Below are positions 16,308 through 25,282 of a DNA stretch of 28,652 nucleotides, in pieces. The DNA comes from a virus (Duplodnaviria; Heunggongvirae; Uroviricota; Caudoviricetes). Numbering within the stretch: the stretch's first letter is position 1; each line of letters opens with the position of its first letter. The stretch spans positions 1 through 28,652 of the IMG/VR virus record IMGVR_UViG_2778261122_000004; one strand, written 5' to 3'. Under the pieces are notes generated by a model, which worked only from the letters and a program-made list of their open reading frames with translations, was not told the DNA's origin and searched no databases. The translations under genes were made by a program, and so were the position numbers.

Positions 16308-16683
16308 TGTAACAGATGTGCTTTTTGACCCCGATTTTTGCGACTTCAATTTGTGGGTAACACGCCGTGTGCAAACGGTGGATGAGGACGGGATCGGCAG
16401 CGACAGCGAAGTTAAAAAGCAGTTTGCCGGAGTCGTAACTGTTGATCGCTCTCTGGAAAACCGTCGTATGCAGGCCGGGCAGGTAATCAGTGGTGCAATT
16501 CTGATTGTGACGACTGAGCGACTGACGCAGGGACAGACTGGCCGTGATGCCGATATCGTGACGTATCAGGGCCGTGATTATCGTGTGACTTTCGTCGACC
16601 CGTATACAGCGTATGGTGCCGGATTCGTTCAGGCGCATTGTGAGTTGCTGCCGTTTGATGGGGGAATTCCGGTTGAGCAATAA
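16294..16683 (+). CDS. putative head-tail joining protein
   Basis: 129 aa, overlaps neighbours; position only. Confidence 0.45.
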   Translation: MPTLDVTDVLFDPDFCDFNLWVTRRVQTVDEDGIGSDSEVKKQFAGVVTVDRSLENRRMQAGQVISGAILIVTTERLTQGQTGRDADIVTYQGRDYRVTFVDPYTAYGAGFVQAHCELLPFDGGIPVEQ

Positions 16684-17221
16684 CACCAGCACAGAGCGCG
16701 GATGGCTGATACCAACCAGTGGCGATCCGGATTATGACGAAGCGCTCGACAGGCTGTTAAGCCAGTGGATGCGTAACGTTTCCGGTCTGTCTGCCGGGAT
16801 GGTTCGTCCGCGCTGGCAGAAAGAGCAACCGCCACTGCTACCGGCTGAAACGAACTGGTGTGCGTTTGGGGTTATCGGATGGTCAGGTGATGACAGTCCG
16901 GCATTCACCAGACAGACCGATGATGGCTCTCAGCTCTGGCGGCATGAAACGATTGAGTGTATGGCTTCGTTTTATGGTCCGGCGGGGATGGTGTATGCGT
17001 CCCGGTTTCGTGACGGTATATCTGTACCGCAGAACAACGCAGCACTGAATGCGCTGGGGCTGTCTCTTGGCGATTACACAGGTCTGACTCCCTTCCCTGA
17101 ACTTATTAATCAGCAATGGGTCCGCCGCTACGATATGACGGTGCGTCTGCGCCGGAAGGTTGTGCGCGAGTACGGTATTAAATCGCTGGTGGAAGCACCA
17201 GTCATCTTTTTCGGAGATTAA
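16658..17221 (+). CDS. putative tail completion protein
   Basis: Start ATG 16658 (alternative TTG 16673); immediately upstream of the sheath gene. Confidence 0.45.
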   Translation: MGEFRLSNNTSTERGWLIPTSGDPDYDEALDRLLSQWMRNVSGLSAGMVRPRWQKEQPPLLPAETNWCAFGVIGWSGDDSPAFTRQTDDGSQLWRHETIECMASFYGPAGMVYASRFRDGISVPQNNAALNALGLSLGDYTGLTPFPELINQQWVRRYDMTVRLRRKVVREYGIKSLVEAPVIFFGD

Positions 17222-17224
17222 GCT

Positions 17225-18370
17225 ATGGCACAGGGCTTGCCTGTATCAAACGTTGTTAATGTTGATGTGATCATGTCGCCGCGTGCAGCATCAGGGCGAA
17301 ATTTTGGTGCATTACTCATTCTCGGCCCGTCCACAATCATTCCGGTAAGTGAGCGCATTCGCCGTTATTCTGCCGCGGAAGATATTGGAAAAGATTTTGG
17401 CGTGGAATCACCAGAATATAAGGCTGCGCAGGTGTTTTTCTCTCAATCACCGAAACCTCAGGAGGTTTTTGTTGGTCGTTGGGTGAAAACGAAGGGAGAC
17501 AGCGAACAGGCCACGCCTGAGACGCTGGAGCAGGCTGTGAATGCCATGCTCGATTATACTTCATGGTATGGGCTGGGGATTGCAGACGATGAAGATATTC
17601 CGGATGCAGACTGGCTGAAAGTGGCTGCGGCGATCGAATCCTCTTCTGTAAGCCGTATTCTGGCGATTACGACAAGCGATGAGAAATGCCTGCAGACTGC
17701 ATCCAGCGATGATTTGGCATCAAAACTGAAAACCGCCGGATATTCACGCAGTTTTATTCAATATTCATCGGGTAGTAAATACGCTGCGTTATCTGCATTT
17801 GGCCGGGCATTCACGGTTAATTTCAATGGCAGTAATACCGCGATTACGCTCAAGTTTAAGCAGGAGCCGGGTGTCGGGTATGAAACACTGACAGTCAGCC
17901 AGGCATCGGCACTTGATGCAAAAAACTGCAATGTGTTCGTGTACTACCAGAATGATACAGCTATCCTCCAGCAGGGAGTGATGGCTAACGGCGATTTCTT
18001 TGATGAACGCCACGGCCTGGACTGGTTACAGAATTATGTGCAGACCAACCTCTATAACCTGCTTTATACCAGCACCACGAAGGTTCCCCAGACTGAAGTC
18101 GGTATTACCCGACTGTTATCAAATGTTGAAAAATCACTGGATCAGGCCGTTCAGAATGGACTGATTGCTCCGGGCGTATGGAACGGTGGCGACCTTGGTC
18201 AGTTGTCATCAGGTGACACGCTGCCCAAAGGTTATTACGTATACGCCCAGCCGCTGGATGAACAGGCACAATCAGAACGTGAAGCCCGTAAGGCTCCGGT
18301 GATTCAGGCTGCAATAAAACTTGCAGGCGCGGTTCATTACGCTGACGTACAGATTAACGTTGTTCGCTAA
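17225..18370 (+). CDS. contractile tail sheath protein
   Basis: 381 aa; canonical sheath-tube-chaperone-tape measure order; resembles DUF3383-type sheath proteins (from memory). Confidence 0.7.
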
Positions 18371-18380
18371 GGGGAAGTGA

Positions 18381-18821
18381 ATGTCTACCTATTCTTTTAT
18401 GGATGTCACTGCGACGCTGACCGGCCCGACCGGTTCGATTGACCTCGGGTACGGTTCTGCAAGTTCTGAAGAGGGGATTGTGGTTGCGATGGGCGGTCCT
18501 AAAAACACCATGACCATCGGTGCTGATGGCGAAGTGATGCACAGTCTCCATGCAGATAAAAGCGGGACGATTACCGTTAACCTTCTGAAGACATCACCGA
18601 CAAATAAAAAATTGTCGCTGGCGTATAACGCACAGAGCCAGTCTTCTGCCACATGGGGGAATAACGTTATCGTGATCCGCAACAAGGTCAGCGGCGACAT
18701 CATCACGGCACGCAGTGTTGCGTTCCAGAAACAACCGGATAACGCCAACGCTAAAACCGGTAATACGATGCCGTGGGTGTTTGACTGCGGCAAGATTGAC
18801 CAGGTTCTCGGGGAGTTTTAA
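18381..18821 (+). CDS. tail tube protein
   Basis: 146 aa, directly after sheath; GGGGAAG SD. Confidence 0.65.
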   Translation: MSTYSFMDVTATLTGPTGSIDLGYGSASSEEGIVVAMGGPKNTMTIGADGEVMHSLHADKSGTITVNLLKTSPTNKKLSLAYNAQSQSSATWGNNVIVIRNKVSGDIITARSVAFQKQPDNANAKTGNTMPWVFDCGKIDQVLGEF

Positions 18822-18824
18822 TGC

Positions 18825-19277
18825 ATGGAATTCGAAATCAAAGGCGTGAAATATCGCGTGGCAAAACTCAGCGTTTTTGACCAGCTGAAAGTGACCCGCA
18901 AACTTCTGCCGGTACTGGCGGGAATGATGTCAGATTTCGGGAGCATTCGCTCCCGTTTGCCTGCTGACGGCAAAATCGACACCGTGAAATTCGAGCAGTT
19001 AAAACCGGTGTTTGAAACCATGCTCCCGCGTATCGCTGAGGAACTGTCTTCCCTGACCGAAGATGACACCGATGCGATTATTCATCCCTGTCTTGCGGTG
19101 GTGTCGCGGCGTCATATGGACGGATGGGTTCCGGTATTTACCCAGGGCGAACTGATGTTTGATGATATTGACTTGCTGGTCATGCTTCATCTGGTGGCGC
19201 GGGTGGTCGCCGATTCGCTGGGAAATTTTTTGCCTACACCCCTTACCAGCACGACGCAGAGCCTGCAACAGGGCTGA
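18825..19277 (+). CDS. tail assembly chaperone (G-like, zero-frame product)
   Basis: 150 aa, between tube and tape measure; slippery heptamer near the 3' end (see next feature). Confidence 0.65.
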   Translation: MEFEIKGVKYRVAKLSVFDQLKVTRKLLPVLAGMMSDFGSIRSRLPADGKIDTVKFEQLKPVFETMLPRIAEELSSLTEDDTDAIIHPCLAVVSRRHMDGWVPVFTQGELMFDDIDLLVMLHLVARVVADSLGNFLPTPLTSTTQSLQQG

Positions 19278-19465
19278 CGTTTAACAGCCTGCCGGACGGG
19301 CTGTCCTACCTTCTCAATCCGGTTGACGCCGGGTTAATTCCCTATACAGCACTTAAAGATGGCTCTGTCGATTTGTATGACATTGCTCTCTTGAATGACC
19401 ATCTGGCGGTAAAAGCGGATAACCAGCGGCGCATTGAGAAATGGAGAGAGGATAATGAACGCTGA
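19223..19465 (+). CDS. predicted -1 frameshift extension of the tail assembly chaperone (GT-like)
   Basis: Heptamer A_AAT_TTT at 19223-19229 is in X_XXY_YYZ register for the chaperone frame; the -1 frame is open with no start codon from the slip site to TGA 19463-19465, overlapping the tape-measure start. Confidence 0.5.
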   Translation, partial: KFFAYTPYQHDAEPATGLTFNSLPDGLSYLLNPVDAGLIPYTALKDGSVDLYDIALLNDHLAVKADNQRRIEKWREDNER

Positions 19466-21443
19466 AACTATTAAAGATTTCCTCGTCTCGCTTGGCTTCA
19501 GTGTGGATGATGCAGGAGCGAAAAAGTTCGGTTCTGTCCTCGCCGGTACAACTGCAAATGTCATCAAAATGGGACTGGCCGTTGAAGGAGCTGCGCTGTC
19601 CGTGGTGGCCTTCACGGCTAAGATCGCCTCCGGCCTGGATAATCTTTACTGGGCGTCACAGCGCACCGGCGCGACAGTCCAGGGAATTCAGTCTATTGGC
19701 TATGCGGTTTCGCAGGTTGGCGGCAGCGTGGACGCTGCGCGCGGGTCACTGGAGAGCCTTGCCCGTTTTATCCGTAATAACCCCGGGGCGGAGGGATTTC
19801 TGAATCGTCTGGGGGTACAGACCCGTGACGCCAGCGGTAACATGCGCGACATGGCCGCTATCTTTACGGGCGTCGGCCAGAAGCTCAGCAGCATGCCGTA
19901 TTACCGGGCTAACCAGTATGCGCAGATGCTGGGCATTGACGAAAATACCCTTATGGCGATGCGCCGGGGTGTGGGGGGGTTCTCCGGGCAGTACAGCGCA
20001 ATGGCGAAAGCTATCGGCTTCAATGCTGACGAGGCGGCCAGAAGCTCCAACAAATTCATGACCTCCCTGCGCGAGTTCGGCGCGATGGCAGGCATGGCCC
20101 GTGACAAAATCGGCTCTAATCTTGCGGGTGGGCTTGCGGGTTCGCTGGACACCCTGCGCCGCCATATCCTGGACAACTTCCCTCGTATCGAGCAGACCCT
20201 GACGAAAGCCATAAAAGGCATTCTGGCGATCGGAGACATCATCGGGCGGCTGTTCTTCAGGCTAATTGAGGGAACATCCAGCCTTATCACCTGGTGGCAA
20301 TCGCTGGATAAGCAAACGCGGGAGCTCATCTCGCTGTTTGGCGCGCTGACGATTGCGCTGCGCATTCTGAACAGTACGTTCTGGATGTCGCCGATTGGTC
20401 TCATTACCGCGCTGGCGGCGGGGATTGCCCTTCTGTGGGAGGACTATCAGACCTGGAAGGAAGGCGGCGACAGCCTGATTGACTGGGGCAAGTGGAAGCC
20501 GGAGGTCGATGCCGCGCTGAAGATGGTTCGTGACCTGAAAGGGTCTGTTAATGAACTGGCGAAAGCGCTGGCGAAACTGCTCAATATTGACCCAAAATCA
20601 TGGTCCCTGAAGTGGGATTTCAGCAACTTCATCGACCAGATGGGCGAATTCAGCAAAATGCTGAACATGATCGCCGACCTGCTCAACGCTATCAAAGATG
20701 GCCGCTGGGCTGATGCCGTCATCATCGGCAAACAGATACTTAATCAGGGCAGCGAAAATCCGTCAGCGATGCCGATGGTTACAGACAGCGCTAACAGTAC
20801 TGCCGACTGGATTAAAGAGCACTGGGGATTCGATCCCCGCAGTGTGGGCCGGACGGTACGCGGCTGGTTTGGTGATGATGAGCCGGAACAATATGCACAG
20901 GCTACGAAACGAGGAGAACGGAATAACAATCCGGGAAACCTTAATTTTGCTGGTCAGGCAGGGGCTTCTCTTGAACGCCCGGGCGGGCGATTTGCCAGAT
21001 TTGAAACTGCTTTTGATGGATTACGGGCTCTTGCTCGTCAGTTAATGCTGTACGCCGGACGGGGAATAAACAGTGTGGAGAAAATTATCTCTACTTGGGC
21101 ACCTGCGTCTGATAATAACAACACAACTGCGTATATCAGGGCTGTATCGCAACGACTGGGAGTGGATCCCCGGGCTGCCCTGAATATGAGCGATCCGCAA
21201 ACCATGTCAGCATTGATGAGCAGCATTATCCAGCATGAGAATGGAAGAAATATCTATTCTCGAGAGCTGATTAATAAGGCTGCCGTGGCGGGAATTAGTG
21301 GCAAAATGACAGAGGTTAACCAGCAAAATACCTACCACATTTACGGTGGTGGAGATCCGCACGCTGTCGGTAATGAGGTTGCACGTCGGCAACAGTCTGC
21401 AAATGCTCAGGTCATGCGAAGTAATCAGGTGAGGGTGGGTTAG
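19455..21443 (+). CDS. tail tape measure protein
   Basis: 662 aa, largest gene in the tail block, right after the chaperone; ATG 19455 with GGAGAGAGG SD (ORF track begins at TTG 19434). Confidence 0.8.
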   Translation: MNAETIKDFLVSLGFSVDDAGAKKFGSVLAGTTANVIKMGLAVEGAALSVVAFTAKIASGLDNLYWASQRTGATVQGIQSIGYAVSQVGGSVDAARGSLESLARFIRNNPGAEGFLNRLGVQTRDASGNMRDMAAIFTGVGQKLSSMPYYRANQYAQMLGIDENTLMAMRRGVGGFSGQYSAMAKAIGFNADEAARSSNKFMTSLREFGAMAGMARDKIGSNLAGGLAGSLDTLRRHILDNFPRIEQTLTKAIKGILAIGDIIGRLFFRLIEGTSSLITWWQSLDKQTRELISLFGALTIALRILNSTFWMSPIGLITALAAGIALLWEDYQTWKEGGDSLIDWGKWKPEVDAALKMVRDLKGSVNELAKALAKLLNIDPKSWSLKWDFSNFIDQMGEFSKMLNMIADLLNAIKDGRWADAVIIGKQILNQGSENPSAMPMVTDSANSTADWIKEHWGFDPRSVGRTVRGWFGDDEPEQYAQATKRGERNNNPGNLNFAGQAGASLERPGGRFARFETAFDGLRALARQLMLYAGRGINSVEKIISTWAPASDNNNTTAYIRAVSQRLGVDPRAALNMSDPQTMSALMSSIIQHENGRNIYSRELINKAAVAGISGKMTEVNQQNTYHIYGGGDPHAVGNEVARRQQSANAQVMRSNQVRVG

Positions 21444-22030
21444 TGGATATTCTCTCTACACTTTTTCATCAGCAGAGCAGAAAAATAGGAATGATTGTTC
21501 CCAGTGTTGTTATTTCAGAGAAGCATACAGATATGCTTGAAATAACAGAGCATCCGGTAGAGGTTGGGGCCGCTGTCGCTGATCATGCCTATAAAAAACC
21601 GTCAGAAGTGGTGATGGAGGTTGGTTTCGCCGGTGGCGGCGCATTGCTGGATTTTGCCAGTAATCTGACGGCTACCAGCCTGCTCGGCCTGAGTCCTCAG
21701 CAGACGTATCAGGAGCTACTGGATCTGCAGGAAAGCCGTATCCCCTTCGATGTGGTAACCGGTAAACGACTGTACAGCAACATGTTGATCCGGGCGCTGG
21801 AAGTGACGACGGACAAGACAACCGAAAACGTCCTGTCCGCCGTCCTCACCCTGAGGGAGGTCCTTATCTCCCGGACGCAGCAGATTACCGTCGCGGATAA
21901 AACCAACATGAAGGAAGGGGCCAGCACGTCGGCGGTACAGAACAGCGGCAACAAAACCACCAAGCCTCCAGATACTTCACTGCTGAAAAGCATCACGGGT
22001 AACGTGGCGTCATTACTGGGGGGCGGCTAA
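21443..22030 (+). CDS. tail/baseplate assembly protein
   Basis: GTG start overlapping the tape-measure stop, GAGGGTGGG SD; 195 aa. Confidence 0.5.
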   Translation: MDILSTLFHQQSRKIGMIVPSVVISEKHTDMLEITEHPVEVGAAVADHAYKKPSEVVMEVGFAGGGALLDFASNLTATSLLGLSPQQTYQELLDLQESRIPFDVVTGKRLYSNMLIRALEVTTDKTTENVLSAVLTLREVLISRTQQITVADKTNMKEGASTSAVQNSGNKTTKPPDTSLLKSITGNVASLLGGG

Positions 22031-22332
22031 TGACAATTCAGGAAATTCCGCTGACAGCGGACAACCAGCAGTTCAGCATCGTCCTGGGTGGTGTTACCTG
22101 GCGGATTAGCATCATATGGCGCGATCTGTACTGGATTATGGACCTGCAGAACGACAGAGGGGAGCCGGTAATCTCCGGTATTCCTCTCGTCACTGGTGCT
22201 GACCTGCTGGCGCAGTACGCCTGTATGGGACTTGGTTTTAAGCTGGTGGTGGTCTGCGATGACAACACACAGGATTATCCCACGAAAACTGATCTGGGCG
22301 GCCTCAGTCATTTACTGGTATCAACGGAGTAA
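22030..22332 (+). CDS. tail/baseplate protein
   Basis: 100 aa, TAATG coupling. Confidence 0.45.
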   Translation: MTIQEIPLTADNQQFSIVLGGVTWRISIIWRDLYWIMDLQNDRGEPVISGIPLVTGADLLAQYACMGLGFKLVVVCDDNTQDYPTKTDLGGLSHLLVSTE

Positions 22333-22334
22333 GC

Positions 22335-23387
22335 ATGTCACAGAACTGGATGAGACATTTCGAGCTGCAGCTTGTGGACGGGAACGGTCAGGGAATTGAG
22401 CTAAGTGATTTCAAAGTCACCTTTACGATCGACTGGTTCAACATCAGCAGCGCGTCCCGGGTAGGGACTATCAAAATTTATAACCTCTCGGCAGATACTG
22501 TGAACCGAATCACCGGGCAGGAATTTTCGAAAGTGCGTCTGATTGCCGGTTACGACGGTATCGCGCCGGAGGTGTCAGCAAGCGACGTAGGGACCGTGCG
22601 GGAAGTTGACGCGGCGGACGTGGGCCAGAGAGATGGCCGCAACTACGGACTGATTTTCAGCGGTGAAATTCGCTACTCGGTCACAGGAAAAGACAGTCCG
22701 GTTGATTCCTACGTCCTGATTCAGGCAGCAGATACTGATCTGGCTTTTGCCACCAGTATAACCTCACAGACGCTGGCTGCCGGTTACACGGTCGCTGATG
22801 TGAACCGTGCGCTGATGAAAGACTTCGAAGCCAAAGGTGCGACCGAAGGCCTGACGCCTGAAATGCCTGCTACTGTATTCCCCCGGGGGCGGGTGCTCTT
22901 TGGCATGACGCGGCATCTAATGGATAACGTAGCCGGGCAATGTGGCGCAACATGGCAATTCGTGGATGGTCAGCGCCAGATGGTGGTGAATAATGAATAT
23001 GTTCACGAAGCGATTGTGCTCAACAGCGCTACCGGGCTTATTGGCATGCCGCAGCAGACCATCGGCAACGGCGTAAACGTCCGCGCGCTTATTAATCCGA
23101 ACATCCGGGTTAATGGGCTCATTCAACTGGATCAGGCTTCCGTATATCGCACCGCGTTGTCGAACAACGATATCGCTATGGCTGGTGGGCAGATCACCGA
23201 CCAGAACACGGACGGAAATATTACGCTAAGCGGCACCATATCGCAGCCTGCCAGCATCGCAACGGATGGCGTTTATATTGTGCGCGGGATTATGTACACT
23301 GGCGACACAAGGGGCCAGGCGTGGTACATGGATATGATGTGCGAAGCGCGCGGTGCGGCGGATCTTCGTTCGGCGTCGTCTTTATAG
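22335..23387 (+). CDS. baseplate hub protein (Mu gp44 / gpD-like)
   Basis: 350 aa, GGAG SD; position after tape measure and before spike. Confidence 0.55.
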   Translation: MSQNWMRHFELQLVDGNGQGIELSDFKVTFTIDWFNISSASRVGTIKIYNLSADTVNRITGQEFSKVRLIAGYDGIAPEVSASDVGTVREVDAADVGQRDGRNYGLIFSGEIRYSVTGKDSPVDSYVLIQAADTDLAFATSITSQTLAAGYTVADVNRALMKDFEAKGATEGLTPEMPATVFPRGRVLFGMTRHLMDNVAGQCGATWQFVDGQRQMVVNNEYVHEAIVLNSATGLIGMPQQTIGNGVNVRALINPNIRVNGLIQLDQASVYRTALSNNDIAMAGGQITDQNTDGNITLSGTISQPASIATDGVYIVRGIMYTGDTRGQAWYMDMMCEARGAADLRSASSL

Positions 23388-23401: not shown

Positions 23402-23755
23402 GTGAAAAAGTGGATTGTTATTGGACTCTGTTTCCTTCCGGGGTTCGCATTTGCTGCGAATCCTGGCGGTGTCACGCTTCAGTGTGGTGGCTACAAATTA
23501 GAGTTGATTCCTGATTCATTGTTCAGGATTAATGGTGAGACAGTTACCTCCCAGAAAATCAAAACGCTCGGCAACGGTAATGGAATGAAGGCGGATATGG
23601 GGCTTATGCCAGCCAAAGACGGTAACAATTACGGTTTCGAGTTCATTCGCCGTCCGGGTACCGAAACGCGTTTCTTGAATGTCCAACTACTGCAGAACAG
23701 CATGGATGCGCCGAGAATCATAGGTTCGTTTCCTTGTAAGAAGGTTGACGATTAA
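23402..23755 (+). CDS. cargo gene: small secreted (periplasmic) protein with two Cys
   Basis: GTG start with GAGGTAGGA SD; signal peptide MKKWIVIGLCFLPGFAFA|ANPGG; a cleavable signal is incompatible with a virion structural role; GC lower than flanking tail genes by eye. Confidence 0.6.
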   Translation: MKKWIVIGLCFLPGFAFAANPGGVTLQCGGYKLELIPDSLFRINGETVTSQKIKTLGNGNGMKADMGLMPAKDGNNYGFEFIRRPGTETRFLNVQLLQNSMDAPRIIGSFPCKKVDD

Positions 23756-23761
23756 TACAAT

Positions 23762-24292
23762 ATGTGCAATCAAAGGAATGAGGCTGTTGGCCTTGAAGTA
23801 GATACGATTTTGTCGTACTCGAGAGACAGGTATGAAGAAGTTAAGACAACATACAGGCGGTTAGAGGACAAAGCTAATTTTCTTCTTGCTGTGCTTGGTG
23901 TTGAGATTTCTGCATTATTAGCCGTTTTTGGGTCCTTTGAGCTGGGACAACAGTTAAAGACTAGTCTATCCGCAAGATTGTCTCTATTGTGTCTATGTTC
24001 ATGTTTTGTATGTTTGGTTTTTTGTTTTTATTATTTATGGAAATGTTGGGAACTTAGAAATATTCCCAAAATGCCTGTGCATCGAACACCTGAACAACAT
24101 GAATTTCTTCTGAGGGGTAGTAGAGATGACACAGTCAGATTTCATTTGATAATGTATGGTAGGGCTATTGATAGAATCGAGAAAATCCATAAAGAAAAAT
24201 CAGCGTTTGTAAATGAGTTGTTTCGATGGATGGTTATGTCATTTGTATTTTTTATTATTTCTGTAACGTGCATGTTAATAAGTAAGGTTTGA
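23762..24292 (+). CDS. cargo gene: 3-TM membrane protein of unknown function
   Basis: 176 aa; charged N-terminal segment then three hydrophobic helices (FLLAVLGVEISALLAVFGSF; LSLLCLCSCFVCLVFCFYYLW; FRWMVMSFVFFIISVTCMLI); strongly AT-rich by eye. Confidence 0.6.
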   Translation: MCNQRNEAVGLEVDTILSYSRDRYEEVKTTYRRLEDKANFLLAVLGVEISALLAVFGSFELGQQLKTSLSARLSLLCLCSCFVCLVFCFYYLWKCWELRNIPKMPVHRTPEQHEFLLRGSRDDTVRFHLIMYGRAIDRIEKIHKEKSAFVNELFRWMVMSFVFFIISVTCMLISKV

Positions 24293-24529: not shown

Positions 24530-25282
24530 ATGGCCGTATCTGACCAGACCCGCAGCGGCGACCTTGCCGAAACATTCAAATCTGAACGGGAAACAACAAA
24601 GAACCAGATCCGTGTCGCCTTGCCTGGCATTATTCAGTCATTCGATCCTGATGCGGTGACGGCAGTTGTGCAGCCTGCTATCCGTTCGGTTGAAAAGGAT
24701 AATGACGGCAACCGCATTACCCAAAATTACCCATTGCTGGTGGATGTGCCAGTGGTATTCCCGCGCGGCGGAGGATGCACGCTAACGTTCCCAGTTAAAG
24801 CCGGTGATGAATGTTTGATGATTTTTGCCGATCGTTGTATTGATTTCTGGTGGCAGAGCGGCGGGATACAGGAGCCGGTCGATGACAGAATGCATGATTT
24901 ATCGGATGCGTTTTGTATTGTCGGTCCCCAGTCGCAGGCAAGGAAGATTAGCGGTATTAATACCAGTGCCACACAGTTGCGTAGTGATGACGGCAGCACC
25001 TATTTTGAGCTTAATCCTGATGCCAGGAAAATTAAAATTGTCGCTCCGGGTGGTCTTGATGTGGTTGCCCCTCTGGCTGATTTTTCTGAGAAAGTAACCA
25101 TTCATGGCCTGTTAACCTGGATGGGTGGCATGGTGGGGTCTGTGGTTTCTGGTGTGGCTTCAAAAATCACTGGTGCTGTTGAGTTTTTGGGTAGCGTGAA
25201 GGCTAACGGCAAGCCAATTGATGATACGCACACTCATGGTGGTGTTCAGCGCGGTGGAAGCAATACCGACGGAGTAAACTGA
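24530..25282 (+). CDS. baseplate central spike protein (gpV / Mu gp45-like)
   Basis: 250 aa, GGAG SD; Gly-rich C-terminal region (..DDTHTHGGVQRGGSNTDG) typical of spike tips; position before gpW- and gpJ-like genes. Confidence 0.65.
   Translation: MAVSDQTRSGDLAETFKSERETTKNQIRVALPGIIQSFDPDAVTAVVQPAIRSVEKDNDGNRITQNYPLLVDVPVVFPRGGGCTLTFPVKAGDECLMIFADRCIDFWWQSGGIQEPVDDRMHDLSDAFCIVGPQSQARKISGINTSATQLRSDDGSTYFELNPDARKIKIVAPGGLDVVAPLADFSEKVTIHGLLTWMGGMVGSVVSGVASKITGAVEFLGSVKANGKPIDDTHTHGGVQRGGSNTDGVN

What the first reader, a model, noticed from the sequence alone, without database searches (positions are those of the whole stretch)
19223..19465. Programmed -1 frameshift in the tail assembly chaperone (G/GT-type)
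The chaperone ORF has the heptamer A_AAT_TTT (19223-19229) in correct X_XXY_YYZ register, followed by more T. The -1 frame from that point is open for about 80 codons without any start codon and stops at TGA 19463-19465, overlapping the tape-measure start. This is the conserved chaperone frameshift arrangement known for lambda G/GT and many tailed phages; standard gene callers would miss the fused product.
Basis: partly seen in the sequence, partly recalled or inferred. Interest (0 to 1): 0.5.

Follow-up and report, generated by a model that had tools for sequence, protein, structure and literature searches.

The report
Tail chaperone -1 frameshift, SEN34-like prophage
This is the ordinary programmed -1 ribosomal frameshift that tailed phages use to make a short and a long form of their tail assembly chaperone, found here in an SEN34-like E. 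coli prophage where databases wrongly list the shifted part as a separate small gene.

Summary
The chaperone ORF is 18825-19277 (150 aa, Pfam Phage_TAC_15). It contains A_AAT_TTT in register at 19223-19229. The -1 frame stays open to TGA 19463-19465, 11 nt into the tape measure gene (ATG 19455). The -1 extension is a conserved protein domain (Pfam DUF6889, E 1e-20). In 78 of 80 species-level relatives it is 75-82 codons long, with clear third-position variation in the -1 frame that begins right after the T run. It has no conserved start codon. One refinement: the slip site is a 13-nt run, G_GGA_AAT_TTT_TTG (19220-19232), holding three overlapping in-register heptamers. Its codons GGA-AAT-TTT-TTG are almost frozen at synonymous sites. 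T_TTT_TTN, the phage P2 E/E+E' motif, is the most widely kept heptamer. A_AAT_TTT is supported by GGA/AAT co-conservation, by X_XXT_TTT sites in distant relatives and by published E. coli data. No conserved downstream structure exists. A conserved anti-Shine-Dalgarno-complementary element (GGGTGGTC, 19201-19208) lies 11-17 nt upstream and may stimulate the shift. The same frameshift is already annotated in the related Klebsiella phage Mulock, so this is a new member of a known kind. Its main value is correcting annotation.

The parts
18825..19277 (+). Short chaperone ORF (TAC-N, G-like), 150 aa, zero frame, stop TGA 19275-19277
   Evidence: ORF list. Pfam PF21822 Phage_TAC_15, E 7e-31; PHROG 1688 tail assembly chaperone, E 6e-65.
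19220..19232 (+). Slippery run G_GGA_AAT_TTT_TTG with three overlapping in-register X_XXY_YYZ heptamers (19220-26, 19223-29, 19226-32)
   Evidence: Codon choice nearly frozen across 74 distinct relatives: GGA 68/74, AAT 68/68, TTT 73/73, TTG 69/70, while other conserved Gly/Asn/Phe/Leu columns vary freely.
19223..19229 (+). A slip here gives junction ...SLGNF-FAYTPYQ...
   Evidence: GGA is kept in 67/68 loci where the next codon is AAT, but in only 1/6 where it is not. Distant relatives use X_XXT_TTT at the homologous Phe codon. H_HH.U_UU.Y motifs are among the most efficient in E. coli (PMC4066793).
19226..19232 (+). T_TTT_TTG, the most widely conserved heptamer and the same motif as phage P2 E/E+E'. 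A slip here gives junction ...SLGNFL-AYTPYQ...
   Evidence: T_TTT_TTN is present in all but about 3 of 80 loci, including the 6 that lack AAT. P2 shifts at TTTTTTG (PMC3091744).
19232..19465 (+). -1 frame extension (T-like domain, 77 codons plus TGA), read only after the shift. The fused product is 213 aa: join(18825..19229,19229..19465) or join(18825..19232,19232..19465)
   Evidence: Pfam PF21829 DUF6889, E 1.3e-20. Codon-position entropy 0.75/0.62/1.32 in the -1 frame across 77 sequences. No ATG or GTG.
19201..19208 (+). GGGTGGTC: internal Shine-Dalgarno-like element complementary to the 16S rRNA 3' end. Candidate 5' stimulator, lying 11, 14 and 17 nt before the three heptamers
   Evidence: Duplex energy -12.2 kcal/mol. 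It is the strongest site in the gene and the position with the lowest mean energy across 74 loci (-9.35, against an overall -2.0). The rare CGG codon (45/68) and GTG (68/74) are kept there. Observed mean -10.1 against -6.3 after synonymous resampling. Only 0.04% of window positions reach -12.
19196..19211 (+). Possible small hairpin GGCG-CGGGUGGU-CGCC that carries the SD-like element in its loop
   Evidence: The closing pair 19199/19208 (two synonymous sites) is G-C in 21, C-G in 15 and U-A in 1 of 40 loci with the VARVVA motif, with at least 3 independent switches on a tree. Absent in the VGRVVG lineages, so its meaning is unknown.
19455..21443 (+). Tape measure protein gene (662 aa from ATG 19455); its RBS GGAGAGAGG lies inside the extension
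   Evidence: PHROG 2276 tail length tape measure protein, E 2e-282; annotated start in relatives.
18381..18821 (+). Tail tube protein gene (context, immediately upstream)
   Evidence: Pfam PF11681, E 9e-61.
17225..18370 (+). Tail sheath gene (context)
   Evidence: PHROG 205 tail sheath, E 2e-135; Pfam DUF3383.

Best explanation
The tail assembly chaperone gene of an SEN34-like (Brunovirus-type) contractile-tailed prophage is decoded in two ways. Most ribosomes read 18825-19277 and release a 150-aa chaperone. A minority slip back one base on the run G_GGA_AAT_TTT_TTG (19220-19232), continue in the -1 frame to TGA 19463-19465, and make a 213-aa protein: the chaperone's first 135-136 residues followed by a 77-78-residue DUF6889 domain. 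By analogy with lambda gpG/gpGT, the shared N-terminal part would coat the tape measure protein. The extension would recruit the tail tube protein, and the fixed low ratio of long to short form would be set by slip efficiency. The slip most likely occurs with tRNA-Asn/tRNA-Phe on A_AAT_TTT and/or tRNA-Phe/tRNA-Leu on T_TTT_TTG. A conserved anti-Shine-Dalgarno-complementary element 11-17 nt upstream may raise the efficiency, and no downstream RNA structure seems involved. Shown by sequence: the frames, the slip run, the selection on the -1 frame, the synonymous constraint and the conservation. Inferred: that the shift is ribosomal, which heptamer is used, the efficiency, the role of the SD-like element, and the binding partners.
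For: Frames and stops. Position between tube and tape measure genes, and family assignments (PF21822; PF21829, E 1e-20). 78/80 loci from different species keep a 75-82 codon -1 extension. The period-3 entropy pattern in the -1 frame (0.75/0.62/1.32) is already present in extension codons 1-9. In that stretch the most variable position is the second position of the zero frame, so the -1 frame is the one under protein constraint from the T run onward. Synonymous freezing of GGA AAT TTT TTG. No ATG or GTG in the window's -1 ORF, and 55/77 relatives have no ATG/GTG/TTG before extension codon 25. Annotation pipelines pick five different arbitrary starts, including CTG. Two-frame tblastn matches extend to phages 30-39% identical, each with a slippery heptamer at the homologous Gly-x-Phe position. 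The frameshift product is annotated in phages Mulock and Magia. Literature: lambda G/GT mechanism and ratio (PMC5009743); P2 TTTTTTG (PMC3091744); heptamer efficiencies in E. coli (PMC4066793); SD stimulators act 9-14 nt 5' of -1 sites (PMC5009743).
Against: There is no protein, ribosome-profiling or reporter evidence for this locus or for any member of this family. The heptamer actually used is unresolved. One Salmonella locus (L023, GGA AAT ATT TTG) and Bordetella phage IFTN9 keep only G_GGA_AAT, and Burkholderia phage E192a has no canonical heptamer, so the shift position is not fixed across the family. U_UUU_UUG is not in the most efficient class in E. coli assays. No stimulatory downstream structure was found. 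The loci are phylogenetically related, so the counts overstate independent observations.
Confidence: 0.88

Rival explanations
1. Transcriptional slippage: RNA polymerase adds one extra U at the T6 run (19226-19231). A fraction of mRNAs then carry U7 and encode the fused protein by standard translation (junction ...GNFFAY...).
For: The T run is the most conserved element. A DNA variant with T7 encodes exactly the fused 213-aa protein (P0004/L174), so one extra T/U gives a viable ORF. A non-translational mechanism has been proposed for T4-like chaperone genes (Vladimirov et al. 2022, as cited in PMC12846349; that paper was not held).
Against: Efficient bacterial transcriptional slippage is described for runs of about 9 A or T (PMC5009743). 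Here the run is T6 in 69 and T7 in a few of about 77 loci, never longer. Slippage of the polymerase does not explain the frozen GGA and AAT codons, the GGA/AAT co-conservation, the in-register requirement met by every variant, or the relatives that have heptamers without a long T run (G_GGA_AAT in L023 and Bordetella; C_CCT_TTT in Magia).
Confidence: 0.06
2. The extension is an independent small gene (as in RefSeq: 'DUF6889 family protein', CTG start at window 19301), made by its own initiation or by termination-reinitiation after the chaperone stop.
For: RefSeq and GenBank annotate it this way. In the window the chaperone stop overlaps a CTG (CTGA at 19274-19277).
Against: The window's -1 ORF has no ATG or GTG. 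The annotated starts differ between pipelines (50, 54, 58, 63 and 78 aa). The CTG at the stop is not conserved; TTA or ATA sits there in relatives. Protein-level constraint in the -1 frame starts directly after the T run, upstream of every proposed start and of the chaperone stop. No strong SD precedes the candidate starts.
Confidence: 0.04
3. Chance or decay: the open -1 frame and the heptamer are coincidental, or a remnant of a gene split by a mutation, with no function.
For: A single sequence gives only P about 0.003-0.016 for the open frame, which is not negligible across a whole genome scan.
Against: Conservation across 78/80 species-level loci and into other bacterial orders; purifying selection in the -1 frame; frozen slip codons; presence in 315 of 5,426 complete E. 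coli genomes and in isolated, plaque-forming phages (SEN34, YP3, Mulock).
Confidence: 0.01

Closest known systems
Phage lambda gpG/gpGT tail assembly chaperone frameshift (Levin, Hendrix & Casjens 1993; Xu, Hendrix & Duda 2004, 2013, 2014; reviewed in PMC5009743)
   Same: Two overlapping ORFs lie between the major tail/tube gene and the tape measure gene. [quoted passage not shown] No obvious RNA structure is needed. The extension ends at the tape measure start.
   Different: The slip sequence differs (lambda uses G_GGA_AAG). Pfam scanning at E<=0.1 placed these proteins only in PF21822 and PF21829; direct comparison with lambda G and T was not done. The tail here is contractile rather than a siphovirus tail. 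There is a candidate upstream SD-like element.
Phage P2 gpE/gpE+E' frameshift (Christie et al. 2002; described in PMC3091744)
   Same: Contractile-tailed temperate enterobacterial phage; -1 shift at TTTTTTG, identical to window 19226-19232; no downstream hairpin.
   Different: Different protein families and sizes (P2 E is 91 aa and E+E' 142 aa, against 150 and 213 aa here). Here two more heptamers overlap the T run and are themselves conserved.
Klebsiella phage Mulock CPT_Mulock_014/015 and Burkholderia phage Magia CPT_Magia_015/016 ('tape measure chaperone frameshift product', GenBank annotation)
   Same: Homologous proteins (58% and about 36% identity). Mulock has the identical GGGTGGTCGCC...TTGGGAAATTTTTTG context. 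The annotation joins two frames, as proposed here.
   Different: Those are annotations by analogy, not experiments. Magia uses C_CCT_TTT at the homologous position.
Pakpunavirus (phage Adele) TAC-N/TAC-NC frameshift with conserved GTTTTT motif (PMC12846349)
   Same: The same type of comparative argument for a myovirus whose tail tube belongs to the related KPP10-type family, with a T-run slip motif near the 3' end of TAC-N and the downstream piece mis-annotated as a separate hypothetical gene.
   Different: A different phage family (lytic Pseudomonas phages). Homology of the chaperones to the window's was not tested.
E. coli dnaX and IS3/IS911-family -1 frameshift signals with a 5' Shine-Dalgarno-like stimulator (PMC5009743)
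   Same: An internal anti-SD-complementary sequence lies 9-14 nt 5' of the heptamer. Here the spacing is 11 nt to G_GGA_AAT and 14 nt to A_AAT_TTT.
   Different: No 3' stem-loop or pseudoknot. The element pairs with the GAUCACC part of the 16S tail rather than CCUCC. Its function is untested.

Membership tests
Programmed -1 frameshift tail assembly chaperone pair (lambda G/GT type, Xu et al. 2004) | Gene pair located between the major tail (tube) gene and the tape measure gene | tested here: met
   Tube 18381-18821, chaperone 18825-19277, tape measure 19455-21443.
Programmed -1 frameshift tail assembly chaperone pair (lambda G/GT type, Xu et al. 2004) | Second ORF overlaps the 3' end of the first in the -1 frame and lacks its own start and RBS | tested here: met
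   103-nt overlap and 188 nt beyond the stop. No ATG or GTG; only two late TTG with weak SD.
Programmed -1 frameshift tail assembly chaperone pair (lambda G/GT type, Xu et al. 2004) | In-register slippery heptamer X_XXY_YYZ within the overlap | tested here: met
   Three overlapping heptamers at 19220-19232, under synonymous constraint.
Programmed -1 frameshift tail assembly chaperone pair (lambda G/GT type, Xu et al. 2004) | Arrangement conserved among diverged relatives, with coding constraint in the -1 frame | tested here: met
   78/80 loci; entropy 0.75/0.62/1.32; two-frame matches down to 30% identity.
Programmed -1 frameshift tail assembly chaperone pair (lambda G/GT type, Xu et al. 2004) | Two proteins with a common N-terminus made at a fixed low ratio, both required for tail assembly, neither in the virion | not testable with these tools
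   Needs western blot or mass spectrometry and genetics.
Pfam PF21822 Phage_TAC_15 | Score above the gathering threshold over most of the model | tested here: met
   107.8 bits against a cutoff of 22; model positions 1-122 of 127.
Pfam PF21829 DUF6889 | Score above the gathering threshold | tested here: met
   73.3 bits against a cutoff of 23.9; model positions 2-40 of 40, in the -1 frame translation only.
P2 E/E+E' type | Shift on TTTTTTG | tested here: inconclusive
   The motif is present and conserved, but two other heptamers overlap it and the site used cannot be read from sequence.
P2 E/E+E' type | Sequence homology to gpE and gpE' | not tested
   The Pfam scan at E<=0.1 returned only PF21822 and PF21829. 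No direct comparison with P2 proteins was run.
SD-stimulated bacterial -1 frameshift signal (dnaX / IS3-family type) | Anti-SD-complementary sequence 9-14 nt 5' of the shift site | tested here: met
   GGGTGGTC at 19201-19208, -12.2 kcal/mol, 11 and 14 nt before G_GGA_AAT and A_AAT_TTT (17 nt before T_TTT_TTG). Conserved beyond the amino-acid constraint. Spacing rule from PMC5009743.
SD-stimulated bacterial -1 frameshift signal (dnaX / IS3-family type) | 3' stem-loop or pseudoknot 5-9 nt after the heptamer | tested here: not met
   Window fold z -0.8 and +0.7. Across 77 relatives the mean z is -0.75, with no shared structure. The only stable hairpin (19284-19304) starts 51 nt downstream and is limited to close relatives. 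No Rfam match.
SD-stimulated bacterial -1 frameshift signal (dnaX / IS3-family type) | Mutating the SD-like element lowers frameshifting | not testable with these tools
   Needs a reporter assay.

The most novel reading that the evidence does not exclude
The chaperone frameshift of this phage family is not a bare slippery site. It would be a composite signal: a triple-overlapping slippery run (G_GGA_AAT_TTT_TTG) that gives ribosomes up to three successive chances to slip, driven by a conserved internal Shine-Dalgarno-like element (GGGUGGUC) displayed in the loop of a small covarying hairpin 11-17 nt upstream. This would be a 5' rRNA-pairing stimulator of the dnaX/IS type, which I have not seen described for phage tail chaperone frameshifts (from my own knowledge; not searched exhaustively), and it would tune the short:long chaperone ratio.
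Probability: 0.35. Interest if true: 0.4.

Novelty: new member of a known kind. Interest (0 to 1): 0.22.

Why it matters
Biologically this is the expected tail chaperone frameshift, so it does not change the picture of phage tail assembly. Its practical value is annotation. This prophage type is present in 315 of 5,426 complete E. coli genomes and in many other Enterobacterales. In those records the shifted part is listed as a free-standing 'DUF6889 family protein' with a CTG start, or misnamed 'NTP pyrophosphohydrolase'. The data here indicate that DUF6889 is the frameshift-encoded C-terminal (T-like) domain of Phage_TAC_15 chaperones. The frozen 13-nt slip run and the conserved upstream anti-SD-complementary element also make this a convenient natural system. 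It could show how overlapping heptamers and a 5' stimulator set a low, fixed frameshift ratio in E. coli.

Tried and rejected
1. Folding 19233-19320 and 19180-19300 gave z-scores of -0.8 and +0.7. Folding the 80 nt after the slip site in 77 relatives gave a mean z of -0.75 and no common structure. The 8-bp hairpin at 19284-19304 is too far away (51 nt) and is not conserved. Rejected.

2. An Rfam scan of 19000-19600 at E<=1 found only a chance microRNA-family match, far below threshold.

3. An AlphaFold2 model of the fused 213-aa protein (P0004 with a 34-row alignment) had mean pLDDT 40 and pTM 0.23. That is unusable, so no fold search was run.

4. I tried using the length of -1-frame open runs past the stops of other window ORFs as an empirical null. 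It is confounded, because many neighbouring genes overlap in the -1 frame (ATGA junctions). I replaced it with stop-frequency estimates.

5. The viral-contig scan returned only near-identical (92-100%) copies and added nothing on divergence, but it showed the T run to be T6 in all readable copies.

6. Vladimirov et al. 2022, on a non-translational mechanism in T4-like chaperones, is not in the held library.

7. G_GGA_AAT as the main site: its first G (the third base of Leu132) is not specially constrained (CTC or CTT in 5 loci), and X_XXA_AAU is not in the efficient class in E. coli. I consider it a minor or back-up site, though it is the only heptamer left in L023 and in Bordetella phage IFTN9.

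Full report
OBSERVATION.
The window around the finding reads ...GCC GAT TCG CTG GGA AAT TTT TTG CCT ACA... in the frame of ORF 18825-19277. The heptamer A_AAT_TTT sits at 19223-19229 in correct X_XXY_YYZ register, and the T run continues to 19231. The -1 frame from 19220 is open for 81 codons and ends at TGA 19463-19465. It is open from 19172, i.e. 20 codons before codon 19232-19234. The tape measure gene starts at ATG 19455, behind GGAGAGAGG, so the two overlap by 11 nt. The -1 ORF contains no ATG or GTG, and only two late TTG codons with poor Shine-Dalgarno complementarity. From the stop frequency in the -1 frame of long ORFs in this window (0.070 per codon), 81 open codons have a probability of about 0.003, or 0.016 from composition alone. 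In-register heptamers occur at 0.29% of codons.

WHAT THE GENES ARE.
The window is the late region of an SEN34-like (Brunovirus-type) temperate myovirus:
- neck terminator 16613-17221
- sheath 17225-18370
- tube 18381-18821
- the 150-aa ORF 18825-19277
- tape measure 19455-21443
- Dit-like protein 21443-22030
- baseplate plug 22030-22332
- baseplate hub 22335-23387
- spike 24530-25282

The 150-aa ORF is a Phage_TAC_15 tail assembly chaperone (PF21822, E 7e-31; PHROG 1688, E 6e-65). The -1 translation matches Pfam DUF6889 (PF21829, E 1.3e-20) and PHROG 4364. The DNA is 98% identical to four E. coli phages. It is 84% identical to Yersinia phage YP3 and 75% identical to Salmonella phage SEN34. 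It occurs in 315 of 5,426 complete E. coli genomes. None of these records annotates a frameshift. They leave a 177-nt gap or call a separate 'DUF6889 family protein' that starts at a CTG, equivalent to window 19301. Other records name it 'NTP pyrophosphohydrolase', with starts that give 50, 54, 58, 63 or 78 aa.

COMPARATIVE EVIDENCE.
A scan of one genome per species returned 80 loci with 38-85% protein identity. In 78 of them the -1 frame stays open for 75-82 codons past the slip position. The two exceptions look like decayed copies.

Across 77 distinct extension sequences the entropy per codon position in the -1 frame is 0.75, 0.62 and 1.32 bits, with invariant residues such as P24, G47, D50, D59, N67 and W74. 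This pattern is already present in extension codons 1-9, where the two frames overlap. There the most variable position is the second position of the zero frame. So from the T run onward the -1 frame is the one under protein-level selection. That places the frame change at or before 19232, and it excludes the downstream starts used in databases. 55 of 77 loci have no ATG, GTG or TTG before extension codon 25.

THE SLIP SITE.
In 74 distinct chaperone genes, conserved amino-acid columns normally show free synonymous variation (0.9-1.9 bits). Codons 133-136 are different:
- GGA in 68/74, whereas GGA is 10% or less of other Gly columns
- AAT in 68/68, whereas another Asn column has AAC 40 and AAT 21
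- TTT in 73/73
- TTG in 69/70, whereas CTG dominates other Leu columns

T_TTT_TTN is kept in all but about three loci, including the six in which Asn is replaced (AGT, GGT or GAT before TTT TTG). It is the motif at which phage P2 shifts to make E+E' (PMC3091744).

GGA is kept in 67 of 68 loci where the next codon is AAT, but in only 1 of 6 where it is not. That is the pattern expected if the A at 19223 matters as the first base of A_AAT_TTT. Phages only 30-39% identical use X_XXT_TTT at the homologous Gly-x-Phe position:
- C_CCT_TTT in Burkholderia phages Magia and BgManors32
- G_GGT_TTT in a Ralstonia phage
- A_AAT_TTT in Acinetobacter phage AbTJ
- T_TTT_TTT in a Providencia phage

Bordetella phage IFTN9 and one Salmonella locus (L023) retain only G_GGA_AAT. 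In E. coli reporter assays H_HH.U_UU.Y heptamers, which include A_AAU_UUU, are in the most efficient class. U_UUU_UUG and G_GGA_AAU are not (PMC4066793).

T_TTT_TTG is at least as well conserved, and both may be used. The products differ by one residue at position 136 (Phe or Leu), and both are 213 aa.

STIMULATORS.
The suggested downstream stem-loop or pseudoknot is not supported. Single-sequence z-scores are -0.8 and +0.7, the family mean z is -0.75 with no shared structure, and there is no Rfam match. This matches what is reported for P2.

Upstream there is something. GGGTGGTC (19201-19208) can pair with the 3' end of 16S rRNA at -12.2 kcal/mol. The evidence that this is more than chance:
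- Across 74 loci this is the position with the lowest mean duplex energy in the last 330 nt of the gene: -9.35 against an overall -2.0, and 93% of loci are at or below -6.
- The rare Arg codon CGG (45/68, against 2-8 of about 70 in other Arg columns) and GTG (68/74) are preferred there.
- Resampling synonymous codons for the same amino acids gives an expected -6.3, against -10.1 observed.
- Only 0.04% of window positions reach -12.

The element ends 11, 14 and 17 nt before the three heptamers. The published window for 5' Shine-Dalgarno stimulators of -1 shifts is 9-14 nt (PMC5009743).

Several distant relatives also have their best anti-SD match 9-17 nt upstream, built from different sequences. 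Acinetobacter phage AbTJ and Providencia phage PSTCR3 do not.

The element lies in the loop of a possible hairpin, GGCG-CGGGUGGU-CGCC (19196-19211). Its closing pair joins two synonymous sites and covaries: G-C in 21, C-G in 15 and U-A in 1 of 40 loci, with at least three independent switches. The stimulator role is an inference from sequence only.

RIVALS.
- Transcriptional slippage at T6 could give the same fused protein, and one assembly with T7 encodes it directly. But the run is short for bacterial polymerase slippage, which is described for runs of about 9. It is never lengthened in the family. Polymerase slippage would not explain the frozen GGA and AAT codons, or the relatives whose heptamers lack a T run.
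- Independent initiation of the extension is contradicted by the absence of a conserved start and by -1-frame constraint upstream of all proposed starts.
- Chance is excluded by the conservation.

COMPARISON AND NOVELTY.
This is the lambda G/GT and P2 E/E+E' arrangement (PMC5009743; PMC3091744) in the Phage_TAC_15/DUF6889 family. The same frameshift is already annotated, by analogy, in Klebsiella phage Mulock (58% identical, identical slip context) and Burkholderia phage Magia. An equivalent comparative argument has been published for Pakpunaviruses (PMC12846349). I therefore rate it a new member of a known kind, of low interest to a specialist. It does have practical consequences for annotation: DUF6889 is the T-like domain of the long chaperone, not a free gene and not an NTP pyrophosphohydrolase. 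The triple heptamer and the conserved upstream anti-SD element in a covarying hairpin are the only features that go beyond the textbook case, and both need experiments.

LIMITS.
No protein-level data exist for this family. The structure prediction failed (pLDDT 40), so the T-like role of DUF6889 rests on position and analogy. The loci are phylogenetically related, so the counts are not independent events.

Noticed in passing
L174:1896-1912 (Logan assembly SRR23924998), equivalent to window 19220-19235: A copy of the same prophage has T7 instead of T6 (GGGAAATTTTTTTGCC). Chaperone and DUF6889 are therefore fused in a single 213-aa ORF (P0004, a cluster of 16 sequences). It could be a real mutant that makes only the long form, or a homopolymer error.
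   Followed up: partly
window 19196-19211: Possible hairpin GGCG-CGGGUGGU-CGCC. Its closing pair (19199/19208, both synonymous third positions) covaries G-C/C-G/U-A in 37 of 40 loci with the VARVVA motif, with at least 3 independent switches. The loop is the anti-SD-complementary element. The hairpin is absent in lineages with Gly at codons 125/129.
   Followed up: partly
window 23402-24292: Two ORFs without Pfam matches sit between the baseplate hub and spike genes: 117 aa with a signal/lipoprotein-like N-terminus (MKKWIVIGLCFLPGFAFA), and 176 aa that is hydrophobic. They look like moron-type cargo inside the tail module.
   Followed up: no
window 19301-19465 and equivalents in RefSeq/GenBank (L004:1977-2141): The -1 extension is annotated as a 'DUF6889 family protein' with a CTG start, or as 'NTP pyrophosphohydrolase', with five different start choices (50-78 aa). 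The pyrophosphohydrolase name has no support from Pfam.
   Followed up: yes
L023:about 1885-1905 (Salmonella enterica strain s1); L168:651 (Bordetella phage IFTN9); L173 (Burkholderia phage E192a): These family members have an interrupted T run. GGA AAT ATT TTG and GGA AAT ACT TTC keep only G_GGA_AAT. E192a (GGT TCT TTT ATC) has no canonical heptamer, yet keeps the full -1 extension.
   Followed up: partly
window 19455-21443: The tape measure protein's C-terminal third matches endolysin and transglycosylase PHROGs (residues about 440-650), and RefSeq calls relatives 'lytic transglycosylase domain-containing protein'. This suggests a tape measure with a built-in cell-wall hydrolase.
   Followed up: no
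window 19284-19304: A stable 8-bp hairpin (ACAGCCUG-CCGGA-CGGGCUGU) lies inside the extension coding region, 51 nt after the slip run. It is shared by close relatives only and is too distant to be a classical stimulator.
   Followed up: partly
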